This document shows positions 18,745-21,566 of a stretch of 55,232 bases of DNA, one piece after another. Numbering within the stretch: the first letter of the stretch is position 1; every line of letters begins with the position of its first letter. The stretch lies in IMG/VR virus record IMGVR_UViG_3300021963_000158, positions 1 through 55,232 of that record; one strand, 5' to 3'. Made by a program: the position numbers and the translations under genes. This DNA is from a virus. Lineage: Duplodnaviria; Caudoviricetes. The notes beneath the pieces are model-generated. The model did not search any database and was not told the origin of the DNA. It saw nothing but the letters and a program-made list of their open reading frames with translations.

Positions 18745-18820
18745 TGGGGTAACCAATGGGTAACGATCCCATACTACCAGTTTCACAGACTAGGGTGCAA
18801 ACCTCTACACTATGGTCACC
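18745..18820 (-). tRNA. tRNA-His(GTG)
   Basis: G-1:C73; atypical T-loop ATCGTTA. Confidence 0.88.
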
Positions 18821-19338
18821 ATATCTTTAAATTCTACGCACTTGGGGCACTTCCCGCAGTCAGAGTCTGTTATACACCAACTAACCAACGGCTGGATATT
18901 TTTAGGAATTAAACTCCACTGTTCGGTCTTGGATAGATGATCCAAGGGATGATTGAATGCAACTGCGGGATGCATTGTCGCCCATACTGCCATCATTTCT
19001 TCAATGAAAGGTTTTATATTTCCACTTGGTTCTGCGCTGTTACGTCCACACCAAATTTCTGTAACACTAGAATCTCTGGCCACCCAAAGACTAGCAACAA
19101 ATATAAAATATCTCATCTGATGCACAAACTCACCACCACCGGCAGGTATAGACAAGGTGCTGTACTGTACCTGCTTGTTAAATGCTTGTGCTATTTTTTC
19201 TGCTTTAATGCTGTTAGGCGACAATATTGCGCCAGGATAGACGTGATCAATGTTTAAAAGAATATCTGCGTCTCGAGCAATAGTCAGCATAGCTGTACTT
19301 TCTACGCCGCCGCTGAATAAAATTAAAGCCTTAGACAT
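18805..19338 (-). CDS. QueC-like PP-loop ATPase (7-cyano-7-deazaguanine synthase-like)
   Basis: ALILFSGGVEST, PLDHLSK, SWC...CGKCPKC. Confidence 0.75.
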   Translation of the reverse strand: MSKALILFSGGVESTAMLTIARDADILLNIDHVYPGAILSPNSIKAEKIAQAFNKQVQYSTLSIPAGGGEFVHQMRYFIFVASLWVARDSSVTEIWCGRNSAEPSGNIKPFIEEMMAVWATMHPAVAFNHPLDHLSKTEQWSLIPKNIQPLVSWCITDSDCGKCPKCVEFKDMVTIV

Positions 19339-19394
19339 TGTTATTCCTTATTGTACTAAATATTTTTGTGAGAACCTATCAAAATCTTACCCCA

Positions 19395-19532
19395 ATGGGA
19401 CTTAACTTTCAATTAAGTTTAAGCAATGACGGTGTCTGTTGTATCCTAGTATACGACATTTACAACTGCGAAGCAACCATGCGGTACTTTACCAATGTAA
19501 ACAAGGCACTTAGGTTTATTAATAATCTTTGA
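19395..19532 (+). CDS. small hypothetical protein (MGLNFQLSLS...)
   Basis: short ORF; TAAATA upstream. Confidence 0.45.
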   Translation: MGLNFQLSLSNDGVCCILVYDIYNCEATMRYFTNVNKALRFINNL

Positions 19533-19533
19533 A

Positions 19534-19719
19534 TTATGCTCGAACGTCAACAGTTCGAGGTTTGACTGTGGGATCTAATTCGCCCATTTTGTTGTACAAG
19601 TATTGCACAACTTCTATAACTTTCTTTTGCGAAACAGGATCAACTAGAGTTTTGTACTCTATGTTACGGAATTGGTTATAAACCATATCCCAATTGTTTG
19701 CTATGCTTTGTACTATCAT
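19534..19719 (-). CDS. small hypothetical protein
   Basis: ORF directly behind ATAAATA. Confidence 0.6.
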   Translation of the reverse strand: MIVQSIANNWDMVYNQFRNIEYKTLVDPVSQKKVIEVVQYLYNKMGELDPTVKPRTVDVRA

Positions 19720-19732
19720 ATAGTATTTATTT

Positions 19733-19808
19733 TACCATACAAAAACACACCACTTTCTCTTTATATGCCACGGACGCCACGTGTACGGTGATGTGTTTTT
19801 GTATGGTA
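19733..19808 (-). repeat. 17-bp perfect inverted repeat that includes the ACCA end of tRNA-Lys
   Basis: arms 19733-19749 and 19792-19808. Confidence 0.8.
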
Positions 19809-19877
19809 GGGGTGCTCGGGAACGATCCGAGTTTTACTGGTTAAAAGCCAGTTACTTCACCTTAAAGTTTCACCCCC
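19804..19877 (-). tRNA. tRNA-Lys(TTT), atypical
   Basis: all stems pair; A8/U14; T-loop ATCGTTC. Confidence 0.85.
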
Positions 19878-19906
19878 GCTATCTTATCACTCTTGTCACT
19901 TGTCAT
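19862..19906 (-). CDS. 14-codon mini-ORF MTSDKSDKIAGVKL reading into tRNA-Lys
   Basis: strong SD AAAGGAG 7 nt upstream of the ATG. Confidence 0.5.
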   Translation of the reverse strand: MTSDKSDKIAGVKL

Positions 19907-19928
19907 GACAGATCTCCTTTAAAAAATT

Positions 19929-20003
19929 TGGTACCCGGAGCAAGATTTGAACTTGCGGCCAACGCCTTATCAAGGCGCTGCTCTACCACTGAGCTACCCG
20001 GGT
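19929..20003 (-). tRNA. tRNA-Ile(GAT)
   Basis: cloverleaf, CCA. Confidence 0.94.
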
Positions 20004-20007
20004 GCAT

Positions 20008-20084
20008 TGGTCGGCCCTGAGAGACTCGAACTCCCAACCTCTAGTTTCGAAGACTAGCACTCTAATCCATTGAGTTAAGGACCG
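20008..20084 (-). tRNA. tRNA-Arg(TCG)
   Basis: cloverleaf, CCA. Confidence 0.93.
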
Positions 20085-20149
20085 TAAAATTGTTGCCGGG
20101 TAGGTGCTCCGGCGCCGAATCGTCTTGATATTATCTCACGGCCCTTGTT

Positions 20150-20234
20150 TGGTGGAGATGATAGGGATCGAACCTATCGTGACCGAAGTCGGAGGAGTTA
20201 CAGTCCCCTGCCACACCATTGCGGCGGCATCTCC
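20150..20234 (-). tRNA. tRNA-Tyr(GTA)
   Basis: class II cloverleaf; C at position 8. Confidence 0.92.
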
Positions 20235-20239
20235 ATGTG

Positions 20240-20314
20240 TGGTACTCGATAGCGGAGTCGAACCGCTCTTGCCTGGATGAAAACCAGATGTCCTAACCGA
20301 TAGACGAATCGAGC
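20240..20314 (-). tRNA. tRNA-Glu(TTC)
   Basis: cloverleaf, CCA. Confidence 0.94.
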
Positions 20315-20324
20315 AAAATACTTG

Positions 20325-20397
20325 TGGAAGTGACAGGGATCGAACCTGCGACCTACTGGTTGCAAACCAGTCGCTCTCCCAATTGAGCTACACCCCC
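20325..20397 (-). tRNA. tRNA-Ala(TGC), CCA not encoded (CAA follows)
   Basis: G3:U70, cloverleaf. Confidence 0.93.
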
Positions 20398-20403
20398 ATA
20401 AAC

Positions 20404-20479
20404 TGGCTCCCCAACGTGGGCTCGAACCACGGACCAACAGATTAACAGTCTGCTACTCTACCGACTGAGCTATTGGGGA
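20404..20479 (-). tRNA. tRNA-Asn(GTT)
   Basis: cloverleaf, CCA. Confidence 0.95.
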
Positions 20480-20490
20480 ATACACAAAAT

Positions 20491-20660
20491 TGGTTGGCTG
20501 TGCTCTGCACATTTAATCGTTCCTGCTTGACGTTTTGCTTTCGCGTGTCTTGCGTTTTAAACGAACCATAATTAATCGTTGCCTCACCTAAGTGCCCTAG
20601 TTCCTCTAGGGCTTTACCGCTGTTCCTCAGCGGACCTAAATGCTGTTTACTTCAGCAACC
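20491..20660 (-). ncRNA. candidate ~170-nt structured RNA with AGGAA-loop hairpins
   Basis: terminal helix GGTTGCTG/CAGCCAACC; two hairpins with AGGAA loops; lies between tRNA-Asp and tRNA-Asn. Confidence 0.55.
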
Positions 20661-20665
20661 GTATT

Positions 20666-20740
20666 TGGCGGTCTGTGGGGGAATCGAACCCCCGTAAGTG
20701 GATAGACAATCCACAGTAATAACCTCTATACGAACAGACC
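20666..20740 (-). tRNA. tRNA-Asp(GTC)
   Basis: cloverleaf, G73, CCA; U37. Confidence 0.92.
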
Positions 20741-20748
20741 AAAATCTA

Positions 20749-21013
20749 CTATTTTAAAAAGTACTATAGGGAGGATATAAACTCAGCACCACCTGTTAGT
20801 TTACATTTTTTCTCATTACAGCCCACTGTTTATTCTGTCGCATTCCCGGAAGATGTTCCCTATTTCAACCGCTCGTTGCCTTTGGTATAGGCTCAGGTAT
20901 CTATTTCGGGCTTCCTGCTTCATGGGTATCAAGGCCGTGTACCGAAGTACTTCTGAAACACCTTTTCGTTCACCCCTAACAGAGTAGGTAACCTATAATA
21001 CGTTTTAAAATAG
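20749..21013 (-). ncRNA. candidate ~265-nt structured RNA closed by a ~22-bp terminal helix
   Basis: CTATTTTAAAACGTATTATAGG / CCTATAGTACTTTTTAAAATAG; internal UUCG hairpin; CTGTTAG/CTAACAG pairing. Confidence 0.55.
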
Positions 21014-21058
21014 CAACCCCTGCGGGTTACTTAAAACAACAACTTTTTAAAGAACATT

Positions 21059-21226
21059 TAGTTAATTTCCTAACTAGCTTCTAGTATAGCACTTTTGCCT
21101 TTATGGCACAACCTTTTTATGTGTTGTATTTTTGCTACACCGTCCGCTAGTTAATTTCCTAACTAGTCTCTATTGTATAGCAGATGCCTTTATTGGACAA
21201 CCATTATTTTGTTGTATTTTTACAAC
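21059..21226 (-). promoter_or_regulatory. tandem duplicated promoter cassettes (TTGTCC-17-TACAAT; TTGTGC-17-TATACT)
   Basis: 89-bp period; 19-bp direct repeat at 21059-21077 and 21148-21166; upstream GTTGTATTTTT boxes. Confidence 0.7.
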
Positions 21227-21231
21227 ATATA

Positions 21232-21309
21232 TGGAAGTGCGGGTCGGATTTGAACCGACGGTTTTGCGGATTTGCAATCCACTGCATTGGGCCACTCTGC
21301 CACCGCACT
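21232..21309 (-). tRNA. tRNA-Cys(GCA)
   Basis: cloverleaf, U73, CCA. Confidence 0.93.
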
Positions 21310-21315
21310 ATATTA

Positions 21316-21566
21316 TGGTACTCCTTGGTTCCTAGGTGATGCCCGGCCTGCCGTGGGCGCCTTTCCTTGGCGCTCGGCATGTTCATCCTCGGAGTATTCT
21401 AAAGCATACGTGGTTATATGCTTTAGAATACCCTGTGCTGACACAGGATATGATAGGGTTGATGCCCTACCCAGGAGTCTATTGTTCCACATATGGAACT
21501 CCATGTATCCTGTCCGCCCGTTTAGCTTGTTTAATGTGTTGCCTGGGACCTCGTTTCCCATTCCAC
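21316..21566 (-). ncRNA. candidate structured RNA domains between attenuator terminator and tRNA-Cys
   Basis: multiple GC-rich nested stems separated by a 14-bp AT-rich hairpin (21395-21430). Confidence 0.45.

What the first reader, a model, noticed from the sequence alone, without database searches (positions are those of the whole stretch)
19733..19920. tRNA-Lys bracketed by a Lys-containing mini-ORF and a CCA-sequestering hairpin
Seen: SD AAAGGAG, then ATG ACA AGT GAC AAG AGT GAT AAG ATA GCG GGG GTG AAA CTT TAA (3 Lys in 14 codons), which stops inside the D-loop of tRNA-Lys(TTT). On the 3' side a perfect 17-bp inverted repeat pairs with the tRNA's own UACCA end. Inference: efficient translation would unfold the pre-tRNA, while stalling at the upstream Lys codons would let it fold and be processed, giving a feedback switch specific to tRNA-Lys. 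Known: tRNA-Lys(UUU) is the target of PrrC and PARIS AriB.
Basis: partly seen in the sequence, partly recalled or inferred. Interest (0 to 1): 0.75.

Follow-up and report, generated by a model that had tools for sequence, protein, structure and literature searches.

The report
Lysine-coded leader ORF on phage tRNA-Lys
A giant freshwater phage, like many uncultured relatives, puts a tiny ribosome-readable gene with two fixed lysine codons directly in front of its lysine tRNA and a long hairpin behind it, which hints that translation may help control how this tRNA is made.

Summary
On the minus strand lie SD AAAGGAG (19920-19914), a 14-codon ORF MTSDKSDKIAGVKL (19906-19862) that stops in the D-loop of tRNA-Lys(UUU) (19877-19804), and a 21-bp hairpin (19808-19788 / 19753-19733) starting at U72-ACCA.

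It is not chance. In IMG/VR jumbo-phage contigs the leader motif precedes a tRNA-Lys(UUU) in 92 of 95 hits, and 45 distinct tRNA-Lys sequences sit behind 72 distinct leaders. In samples not chosen by the leader, an SD-led ORF reads into tRNA-Lys(UUU) in 28 of 103 contexts, against 9 of 2136 for other tRNAs. A Lys codon sits at -8±1 in 72 of 72 leaders and at -17±1 in 70 of 72, in three leader types.

Other occupants of the same slot are a ~45-aa basic ORF ("gene X") whose stop lies inside tRNA-Lys (58 of 63), or tRNA-Lys(CUU).

The hairpin stem is conserved with compensatory changes while its loop varies from 3 to 157 nt. It occurs with or without the leader and, less often, after other tRNAs.

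Best reading (about 0.38, inferred): a translated leader whose ribosome competes with pre-tRNA folding and RNase P cleavage, relieved by stalling at Lys codons. The hairpin is a separate processing stem. Translation and regulation are untested. I found no precedent in four literature searches.

The parts
19929..20003 (-). tRNA-Ile(GAU), upstream neighbour in the same-strand tRNA array
   Evidence: ARAGORN; Rfam tRNA 71.3 bits
19914..19920 (-). Shine-Dalgarno AAAGGAG, preceded by an A/U-rich stretch (19928-19921), 7 nt before the ATG
   Evidence: Sequence. An SD plus in-frame ATG accompanies the core motif in 20 of 20 contexts not chosen by the leader. The SD is mostly unpaired in predicted folds.
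19862..19906 (-). Leader mini-ORF MTSDKSDKIAGVKL*, ATG at -29 relative to tRNA +1, stop TAA in the D-loop
   Evidence: There are 72 distinct leaders in relatives.
19892..19894 (-). Lys codon AAG at -17
   Evidence: A Lys codon starts at -17±1 in 70 of 72 distinct leaders
19883..19885 (-). Lys codon AAG at -8
   Evidence: A Lys codon starts at -8±1 in 72 of 72 distinct leaders
19804..19877 (-). tRNA-Lys(UUU) with encoded CCA. Atypical features: G1.U72, A8, and T-loop AUCGUUC (A54/U58 instead of U54/A58).
   Evidence: ARAGORN; Rfam 49.3 bits; sequence. The same 41-nt 5' half occurs in 45 IMG/VR loci.
19788..19808 (-). Hairpin 5' arm, beginning with tRNA nt U72-A73-C74-C75-A76
   Evidence: The stem is conserved with compensatory changes in 59 distinct arm pairs.
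19754..19787 (-). Hairpin loop, 34 nt; this part is hypervariable among relatives (3-157 nt)
19733..19753 (-). Hairpin 3' arm, ending in UGGUA, which pairs with UACCA
   Evidence: In most relatives the last 2-4 nt of this arm are the first nt of the next tRNA, Met or His.
19534..19719 (-). Downstream 61-aa ORF that starts 14 nt after the hairpin. It is a neighbour and probably not part of the module.
   Evidence: Only a weak PHROG match, E = 0.027. A similar ORF start follows the hairpin in L014.

Best explanation
This is a three-part cassette built around the phage tRNA-Lys(UUU).

(1) The leader. It has a strong ribosome-binding site and a 10-14-codon ORF. The ORF carries Lys codons at about -17 and -8 and runs into the 5' part of the tRNA. 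In most relatives its stop codon is tRNA nt 8-10 (UAA or UAG). In the window, where position 8 is A, the stop moves to the D-loop.

(2) The tRNA.

(3) A stem of about 20 bp. It starts at the tRNA's own UACCA end and fills the spacer up to the next gene.

Shown: the cassette is conserved, the leader is specific to tRNA-Lys(UUU), and the Lys codon positions are fixed.

Inferred:
- The leader is translated on the polycistronic tRNA precursor.
- A ribosome moving through it holds the 5' acceptor and D-arm strand unfolded and keeps RNase P off.
- When Lys-tRNA(UUU) is scarce, for example after attack by an anticodon nuclease, the ribosome halts at the first Lys codon. Its leading edge is then still upstream of +1, so the tRNA can fold and be cut out.
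- The leader would thus tie output of the phage's tRNA-Lys to demand.
- RNase P cleavage also removes the stop codon and leaves a non-stop leader.

The hairpin is a separate element. Most likely it is a double-strand-specific (RNase III-type) processing or insulating stem that defines the 3' end of tRNA-Lys and the 5' leader of the next tRNA.
For: Specificity
- The leader motif lies 28-30 nt before a tRNA-Lys(UUU) in 92 of 95 IMG/VR hits. Of the other three, one runs off its contig, one precedes a decayed tRNA, and one is unrelated.
- In loci not chosen by the leader, an SD-led ATG ORF enters tRNA-Lys(UUU) in 28 of 103 non-identical contexts, against 9 of 2136 for other tRNAs. Those 9 show no common sequence.

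Conservation
- 45 distinct tRNA-Lys sequences lie behind 72 distinct leaders.
- For 163 unbiased pairs whose tRNAs are under 75% identical, the leader is 76.5% identical and the tRNA 65.0%.
- 20 of 20 unbiased contexts with the D-K-S-x-K core have an in-frame ATG and an SD.

Lys codons
- A Lys codon sits at -8±1 in 72 of 72 leaders and at -17±1 in 70 of 72. In the unbiased set the counts are 26 of 26 and 24 of 26.
- The same positions hold in type B (MKKSIKTRK.. / MKRKSKTRK..), found in 4 loci before 3 tRNA-Lys types.
- They also hold in type C (MGDDGKSGK..), where K-S-G-K is written AAA TCT GGT AAA instead of AAG AGT GGT AAG.
- Leaders use AAG 126 times and AAA 22 times. The window's own long ORFs use AAA 528 times and AAG 294 times.

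Ribosome-binding site
- AAAGGAG with a 7-nt spacer and an A/U-rich upstream stretch resembles the strongest sites of the window's long ORFs. It is weakly structured, with mean MFE -6.4 kcal/mol and z -0.6.

Other ORFs also read into this tRNA
- The stop of gene X lies inside or beyond the start of tRNA-Lys(UUU) in 58 of 63 distinct proteins.
- Gene X is absent from four near-complete leader-type genomes.

Distribution
- 0 of 107 leader-bearing loci carry a tRNA-Lys(CUU), against 35 of 90 loci without a leader.
- The tRNA arrays of 4 leader-type genomes have no Lys(CUU), nor does the window.

RNA
- Contigs from metatranscriptome libraries join SD, ORF and tRNA-Lys. X2 record 10 covers 19802-19920 at depth 50. 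X5 covers 19791-19912 and X7 covers 19847-19932.

Hairpin
- 71 of 79 tRNA-Lys(UUU) genes have a stem of at least 15 bp starting in the ACCA end.
- 94.2% of positions 6-19 are paired, against 86.3% in shuffles (maximum 88.1% of 1000 shuffles).
- Double-sided changes occur at 7 stem positions.
- There is no U-tract and no terminator call at this site.
Against: - Nothing here shows translation. The RNA data are assembled contigs, cannot show ends, and may include DNA carry-over.
- The leader is dispensable. Only 28 of 103 unbiased contexts have it, and 32 of 100 abut another tRNA with no room for it.
- Synonymous sites are almost invariant: AGT 18 of 19, GAC 19 of 19, AAG 18 of 19. The excess of third-position change is weak, with extra states 2:2:4. 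Selection on the RNA sequence itself, or recent spread of one module, fits as well.
- Ser and Asp/Gly are kept as strictly as Lys, which a pure Lys-codon sensor does not require.
- The frame into the tRNA varies (ATG at -28, -29 or -30), and so does the stop position: +8, +10, +16, +21 or +30.
- Gene X has no Lys codon at -17 or -8 (read from the sequences).
- The exclusivity with tRNA-Lys(CUU) may be purely positional, because both occupy the same slot.
- Leader and hairpin are not coupled.
- RNase III cleavage of the stem is not tested. In the window the stem lacks the A.C mismatch at pair 10 that 38 of 59 relatives have.
Confidence: 0.38

Rival explanations
1. The leader is translated, but its role is not Lys sensing. 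Because the stop codon lies inside the tRNA, RNase P cleavage makes the leader (and gene X) a non-stop mRNA. The point may be to engage trans-translation or rescue factors, to clear the leader, to gate expression of the upstream ORF, or to make a short peptide with a K-S-x-K motif that itself acts.
For: - Several unrelated ORFs share the trait of ending inside tRNA-Lys: leader types A, B and C, gene X in 58 of 63, and two further small ORFs in L010/L045 and L199.
- K-S-x-K is kept at the amino-acid level with different codons in type C, and also occurs in gene X as K-S-N-K.
- Gene X and the leader exclude each other in 5 near-complete genomes.
Against: - A non-stop design gives no reason for the restriction to tRNA-Lys(UUU).
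- The C-termini of the peptides vary with the frame, so any product is ill-defined.
- Gene X matches no family: Pfam, PHROGs, NCBIfam and PDB sequences. My recalled likeness to the rescue factor ArfA found no support.
Confidence: 0.2
2. The conserved leader is a nucleic-acid element and the ORF is incidental. Candidates are an RNase E or RNase P leader determinant, a protein-binding site, or a small hairpin around the AUG.
For: - Near-invariance at synonymous sites.
- A recurrent 4-6-bp hairpin encloses the AUG, as GUCC..GGAC, AUCC..GGAU or UGUCAU..GUGACA.
- The frame into the tRNA is not fixed.
Against: - SD and in-frame ATG accompany the core motif in 20 of 20 unbiased contexts.
- Types B and C differ in sequence yet keep an SD, an ATG and the Lys codon positions.
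- The only motif copy without an SD (L067) sits before a decayed tRNA.
- The leader region is not unusually structured, z -0.6.
Confidence: 0.2
3. Leader and hairpin arms are conserved flanks of an exchangeable tRNA-Lys cassette. They persist because recombination between co-infecting phages swaps tRNA-Lys alleles under pressure from anticodon nucleases. The mini-ORF is then a relic of a former gene start.
For: - Both flanks are conserved around 45 different tRNA-Lys bodies.
- Upstream neighbours differ from locus to locus.
- The arm motif occurs about once per near-complete genome, at tRNA-Lys.
- L199 has a 35-aa ORF with the same MDSDK start.
Against: - Recombination arms need no SD, no ATG and no fixed Lys codons.
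- Compensatory changes in the stem show selection for pairing, not only for sequence.
- A relic would decay, yet three leader types keep the same layout.
Confidence: 0.15
4. Chance: a short ORF and an inverted repeat that happen to flank a tRNA.
For: Short ORFs are common. 13 of 1465 other tRNA contexts in the first two samples also have an SD-led ORF.
Against: as given under the best explanation.
Confidence: 0.01

Closest known systems
Leader-peptide (ribosome-mediated) attenuators of amino-acid and aminoacyl-tRNA synthetase operons: trpL, hisL, pheM of pheST (recalled, not read here)
   Same: A short SD-led ORF carries codons cognate to the regulated function. The position of the ribosome decides which downstream RNA structure can form.
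   Different: - There is no terminator/antiterminator pair and no U-tract.
- The structure at stake would be the tRNA itself, and the step would be RNase P processing, not transcription termination.
- There are only 2-4 Lys codons rather than a long run.
- The ORF overlaps the regulated RNA.
arfA-type regulation, in which the stop codon is removed by cleavage of the mRNA so that the product depends on trans-translation capacity (recalled, not read here)
   Same: The stop codon of the leader, and of gene X, lies beyond a predictable endonuclease site, here the RNase P site at tRNA +1.
   Different: - The cleavage would be by RNase P at a tRNA, not by RNase III at a hairpin.
- Gene X has no detectable sequence relation to ArfA.
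- Nothing has been tested.
Phage-encoded tRNA-Lys(UUU) as counter-defence against anticodon nucleases: T5 tRNA-Lys versus PARIS AriB (abstract and passages of PMC12409363; listing of PMC11464382 and PMC10264068)
   Same: A phage carries its own tRNA-Lys(UUU), the isoacceptor that AriB cleaves. Sequence variants of the tRNA body are the known escape route. Here 45 different bodies are seen.
   Different: Neither the abstract and passages I read (PMC12409363) nor the search listings of the other two papers mention a leader ORF or a 3' hairpin. Whether the host of this phage has such a nuclease is unknown.
Double-strand RNA processing stems cut by RNase III in phage polycistronic transcripts, such as the T7 early sites (recalled)
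   Same: A stem of about 20 bp, often with one internal mismatch, sits between two functional RNAs and is conserved in pairing rather than in its loop.
   Different: - The stem includes the CCA end of one tRNA and the first nt of the next.
- Cleavage is not shown.
- Loops reach 157 nt, and some hold T-arm-like hairpins.

Membership tests
Leader-peptide attenuator | Short ORF with a ribosome-binding site directly upstream of the regulated RNA | tested here: met
   SD AAAGGAG and an ATG 7 nt later. SD plus ATG in 20 of 20 unbiased motif contexts.
Leader-peptide attenuator | Codons cognate to the regulated function at conserved places in the leader | tested here: met
   Lys codon at -8±1 in 72 of 72 leaders and at -17±1 in 70 of 72. 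The leader is specific to tRNA-Lys(UUU): 28 of 103 against 9 of 2136.
Leader-peptide attenuator | Mutually exclusive terminator and antiterminator hairpins | tested here: not met
   No terminator-like site at the locus. The hairpin has no U-tract and occurs independently of the leader.
Leader-peptide attenuator | Output responds to supply of the cognate charged tRNA | not testable with these tools
   Needs an experiment
RNase III processing site | About two turns of double-stranded RNA, with pairing conserved | tested here: met
   21 bp in the window. Across 59 arm pairs, 94.2% paired against 86.3% in shuffles, with double-sided changes at 7 positions.
RNase III processing site | Cleavage by RNase III | not testable with these tools
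   RNA contigs cannot show ends
Intrinsic terminator | G+C-rich stem followed by a run of U | tested here: not met
   The stem is A/U-rich and is followed by AAAAUAAAU. Not among the terminator-like sites.
Dispersed repeat (REP- or MITE-like) | Many copies per genome | tested here: not met
   Unique in the window. About one hairpin of this sequence per near-complete genome.
tmRNA or other described RNA family | Match to the family model | tested here: not met
   ARAGORN finds no tmRNA. Rfam finds only tRNA above threshold. The best sub-threshold match on the hairpin is noise, E = 0.12.
ArfA-like rescue factor (for gene X, the alternative occupant) | Sequence match to ArfA models or solved ArfA chains | tested here: not met
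   No Pfam, NCBIfam or PHROG match and no PDB sequence match

The most novel reading that the evidence does not exclude
The leader is a sensor and actuator in one RNA. Ribosomes read two fixed Lys codons just upstream of the phage tRNA-Lys(UUU). When host tRNA-Lys is destroyed by an anticodon nuclease they stall short of the tRNA, so the precursor folds and RNase P releases the phage's own variant tRNA. In relatives, a small basic protein (gene X) takes the leader's place and would be expressed from the same RNase P-truncated, stop-less message. This would be the first case of translation-controlled tRNA maturation, and a built-in alarm against tRNA-targeting immunity.
Probability: 0.3. Interest if true: 0.92.

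Novelty: new variant of a known kind. Interest (0 to 1): 0.8.

Why it matters
Phage tRNAs are now seen as counter-measures against tRNA-cleaving immune systems, and tRNA-Lys(UUU) is a prime target of those systems. How phages control the supply of such tRNAs is unknown.

A conserved, ribosome-readable leader with cognate codons placed directly on a tRNA gene would link translation status to tRNA maturation. I know of no example of that principle and found none in four full-text searches (read at listing level).

It can be tested with a 200-nt construct. The comparative data also define a compact cassette (leader, tRNA, stem), point to a new small-protein family tied to tRNA-Lys, and show that the flanks are kept while the tRNA body is exchanged or evolves fast.

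Tried and rejected
- Near and distant DNA searches of GenBank phages found no relative of the locus beyond tRNA bodies. One apparent extension into the hairpin arm, in Escherichia phage EJP2, turned out to be a tRNA-Arg with unrelated flanks. No cultured phage with the cassette is in hand.
- I thought gene X might be an ArfA-like rescue factor. There is no hit in Pfam, PHROGs, NCBIfam or PDB. The protein atlas gives only 'hypothetical protein' clusters and one weak DUF7230 lead at 0.87. The idea is dropped as a claim.
- A terminator reading of the hairpin is rejected. A dispersed-repeat reading is rejected.
- Codon-position test on 19 unbiased leaders: extra states 2:2:4. This is too weak to prove coding selection.
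- Covariation of the small AUG hairpin: from my reading of the leader list, 28 of 30 combinations are compatible, but this does not differ from expectation. I make no claim from it.
- Rfam at gathering threshold on 14 loci listed only tRNAs among the 150 rows shown of 209, so it says nothing about the loops.
- Metatranscriptome contigs give no cover over the hairpin loop 19754-19787. This shows nothing either way, because the loop is hypervariable and contigs break there.
- The 'moraphage' paper (PMC12619734, passages only) does not appear to describe this lineage.
- Supplementary files of papers were not consulted.
Full report
**What is in the window**

The window is an IMG/VR virus record of 55,232 bases, estimated 16% complete. 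It encodes a tail sheath, a T4-type large terminase, a GroEL-like chaperonin, methyltransferases, a QueC-like protein and radical-SAM proteins. Its terminase is 55.7% identical to that of the Pseudomonas jumbo phage PA5oct group. Near-complete relatives are 320-364 kb.

All 24 tRNA genes lie on the minus strand between 11.4 and 24.3 kb.

At the site of the finding, the minus strand reads in this order:
- tRNA-Ile(GAU), ending at 19929;
- an A/U-rich spacer;
- SD AAAGGAG (19920-19914);
- ATG (19906-19904);
- the ORF MTSDKSDKIAGVKL, with TAA at 19864-19862;
- tRNA-Lys(UUU) at 19877-19804.

The ORF starts at -29 and stops in the D-loop. A 21-bp stem follows (arms 19808-19788 and 19753-19733, 34-nt loop). 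It begins with U72-A73-C-C-A, and its first 17 pairs are perfect.

The region folds with z = -5.0, and 0 of 200 shuffles fold as well. The repeat is the longest in the tRNA region and is unique in the window.

**Relatives**

GenBank phages hold no relative of the locus beyond tRNA bodies. IMG/VR does, and I took three samples from it.

*Sample 1* used the exact 41-nt 5' half of this tRNA-Lys. It is blind to both flanks and gave 45 loci.
- The SD-led mini-ORF is present in 18 of 46 sequences, counting the window. The upstream neighbours of these differ.
- A stem starting at the ACCA end is present in most.

*Sample 2* used the leader motif alone and gave 95 loci.
- In 92 the motif is followed by a tRNA-Lys(UUU).
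- Of the other three, one runs off its contig, one (L067) has lost its SD and precedes a decayed tRNA, and one is unrelated.
- The tRNA-Lys genes behind the leader are of many sequence types: 45 distinct sequences behind 72 distinct leaders.

*Sample 3* used the hairpin 5' arm alone.
- In the new loci, 63 of 132 matches follow a tRNA-Lys(UUU), 24 follow other tRNAs, and 45 follow nothing that ARAGORN called.
- As read by eye in the same output, some of those 45 are the opposite-strand arm of a perfect hairpin and a few are tRNA-Lys genes that my extraction cut.

**Specificity of the leader**

| Sample | tRNA-Lys(UUU) contexts with an SD-led ATG ORF running in | Other tRNA contexts |
|---|---|---|
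| Samples 1 and 2 | 63 of 81 | 13 of 1465 |
| Samples 1 and 3 only (not chosen by the leader) | 28 of 103 | 9 of 2136 |

The 9 ORFs on other tRNAs share no sequence.

**Anatomy of the leader**

Most of the 72 distinct leaders read M-x-S-D-K-S-(D/G)-K. The ATG is at -29 and the stop is tRNA nt 8-10 (UAA or UAG). In some the ATG is at -30 or -28, and the stop then falls at +16 to +30 or at +8.

Two other types exist:
- Type B (MKKSIKTRK.. or MKRKSKTRK..) occurs in 4 loci, before three different tRNA-Lys types. The other 8 hits of that pattern were unrelated.
- Type C (MGDDGKSGK..) occurs in one near-complete genome. It writes K-S-G-K as AAA TCT GGT AAA, where the common type has AAG AGT GGT AAG.

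Across all types, a Lys codon starts at -8±1 in 72 of 72 leaders and at -17±1 in 70 of 72. In the unbiased set the counts are 26 of 26 and 24 of 26.

Further observations:
- Every one of 20 unbiased contexts that holds the core motif also has an in-frame ATG and an SD.
- The leader is as conserved as the tRNA or more so. It is 76.5% identical, against 65.0% for the tRNA, in 163 unbiased pairs whose tRNAs are under 75% identical.
- Leaders prefer AAG (126 AAG, 22 AAA), while the window's long ORFs prefer AAA (528 AAA, 294 AAG).
- The ribosome-binding site resembles the strongest ones of the window's genes and is weakly structured.

Against a purely coding constraint:
- Synonymous sites hardly vary (AGT 18 of 19, GAC 19 of 19, AAG 18 of 19).
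- The excess of third-position change is small.

**Other occupants of the slot**

In 100 unbiased contexts the script filed:
- 26 as mini-ORF. It filed two more, L233 and L148, under a longer spurious frame; counting them gives the 28.
- 11 as a small basic ORF I call gene X. L157 and L229, which the script filed as having no SD-led ORF, also look like gene X by eye.
- 28 as directly abutting tRNA-Lys(CUU).
- 4 as abutting another tRNA.
- The rest as other or none.

Gene X is 43-48 aa, with consensus MKRKPIVRERNCFVRLALFRKAGSHRKSNKALRRA... It matches no family.

A search for gene X itself gave 144 relatives. Of these, 80 loci and 63 distinct proteins were kept. In 58 of the 63 the stop codon lies inside a tRNA-Lys(UUU) or past its start.

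Gene X is absent from the window and from four near-complete leader-type genomes, and is present once in a fifth genome. Translation running into tRNA-Lys(UUU) is thus a recurrent design with interchangeable ORFs.

No leader-bearing locus carries a tRNA-Lys(CUU) (0 of 107), against 35 of 90 loci without a leader. The tRNA arrays of the five near-complete genomes (26-29 tRNAs each) have none. This fits a sensor that relies on AAG being read by tRNA-Lys(UUU). It may equally be positional.

**The hairpin**

A stem of at least 15 bp starting in the ACCA end follows these tRNAs:

| tRNA | With such a stem |
|---|---|
| Lys(UUU) | 71 of 79 |
| Glu | 19 of 68 |
| Gln | 8 of 73 |
| Leu(UAG) | 7 of 51 |
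| Arg(ACG) | 4 of 32 |
| Every other type | 0-3 each |

- Loops run from 3 to 157 nt and share no sequence. Some hold sub-hairpins, or a T-arm-like GGTTCGAATCC next to the 3' arm.
- The last 2-4 nt of the 3' arm are usually the first nt of the next tRNA, Met or His.
- Among 59 distinct arm pairs, positions 6-19 are 94.2% paired, against 86.3% in shuffles (maximum 88.1% of 1000).
- Seven positions show double-sided changes.
- An A.C at pair 10 (38 of 59) and a U.G at pair 18 (43 of 59) recur.
- Outside these two positions G.U outnumbers A.C by 47 to 19, which mildly favours the tRNA-sense RNA.
- The arm motif occurs about once per near-complete genome.
- There is no U-tract, no terminator call and no Rfam family.

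The stem occurs with the leader, with gene X and with neither. It is therefore a separate element.

**RNA**

Sixteen metatranscriptome runs hold 5-15% of the sampled words of 18800-21400. I laid four of them.

Contigs join SD, ORF and tRNA-Lys:
- X2 record 10 covers 19802-19920 at depth 50. Its one difference, at 19901, makes ACA into ACT, a synonymous change.
- X5 covers 19791-19912.
- X7 covers 19847-19932.

These are assembled contigs from RNA libraries. They show that the joined form exists there. They do not show its ends, nor that it is free of DNA.

**Literature**

Four searches, read at listing level, gave no report of a leader ORF on a tRNA gene or of RNase P-made non-stop messages.

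[quoted passage not shown] What I say about PrrC, attenuators, arfA and RNase III sites is from recall.

**Mechanism**

If the leader is translated, a ribosome whose A site is on the -8 Lys codon reaches into the first bases of the acceptor stem. One terminating at nt 8-10 covers the D-arm. Folding and RNase P cleavage must then wait. This uses recalled footprint sizes of about 12 nt ahead of the A site.

A ribosome waiting at the -17 Lys codon ends near -5 and leaves the tRNA free. Scarcity of Lys-tRNA(UUU) would therefore favour release of the phage tRNA.

This explains the restriction to tRNA-Lys(UUU), the fixed Lys positions, the AAG bias and the strong ribosome-binding site. It does not explain the conserved Ser and Asp/Gly codons or the silent-site conservation.

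I give it 0.38. The rivals are:
- translated, but for a non-stop or peptide role: 0.20;
- an RNA or DNA element with an incidental ORF: 0.20;
- conserved flanks of an exchangeable cassette: 0.15;
- chance: 0.01.

**Limits**

- All relatives are uncultured and the host is unknown.
- Loci are partly redundant and phylogenetically related, so the counts are not independent events.
- No supplementary files were seen.

Noticed in passing
L239:1501-1641 and 79 further loci (L240-L318); absent from the window: Gene X is a conserved 43-48-aa basic protein (MKRKPIVRERNCFVRLALFRKAGSHRKSNKALRRA..) with no family assignment. Its stop codon lies inside, or past the start of, a tRNA-Lys(UUU) in 58 of 63 distinct versions. 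It is absent from four near-complete genomes that have the mini-ORF instead.
   Followed up: partly
window 19804-19877 (-): This tRNA-Lys(UUU) has A8 instead of U8, G1.U72, and a T-loop AUCGUUC in which positions 54 and 58 are A and U instead of U and A. The same T-loop recurs in some tRNA-Lys(CUU) and tRNA-His genes of relatives.
   Followed up: no
L005, L006, L010, L028, L036 and others, just downstream of tRNA-Lys: Where the TACCA hairpin is missing, tRNA-His follows. It is flanked by a 9-10-bp inverted repeat that extends its acceptor stem (for example GTGTTCTTTG ... CAAAGAAT). This is the same layout as the hairpin, with a whole tRNA as the 'loop'.
   Followed up: no
L007, L011, L016, L021 and about 25 further loci: The tRNA-Lys(CUU) genes that sit 3-4 nt upstream of tRNA-Lys(UUU) start with C1-C2 paired to G71-G72 (CC...GGACCA), an unusual acceptor stem.
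   Followed up: no
window 20811-20984: RNA-library contigs of high depth (X7 734, X1 126) cover a stretch of about 160-175 nt between tRNA-Asp and tRNA-Cys. There is no Rfam match and no unusual folding (z = 0.6). A 38-aa TTG-start frame lies there. It may be an abundant small RNA or a short message.
   Followed up: partly
window 21394-21431: A perfect 15-bp hairpin with an 8-nt loop lies in the gap between tRNA-Cys and the radical-SAM gene. Its only sub-threshold match is a microRNA-like Rfam hit, which is noise.
   Followed up: no
L169, L236, L184: The same hairpin 5' arm also follows sequences that ARAGORN does not call as tRNAs but that end in ..ACCA. They may be tRNA-like or other small RNAs.
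   Followed up: no
Leaders with spacer ATCTGTC: Codon 2 of this leader class is Thr (ACA/ACT/ACC), Asn (AAT/AAC), Lys (AAA), Ser or Glu. Thr, Asn and Lys are the amino acids whose tRNAs AriB cleaves in E. coli (abstract). This may be coincidence, since these codons are single-base neighbours.
   Followed up: no
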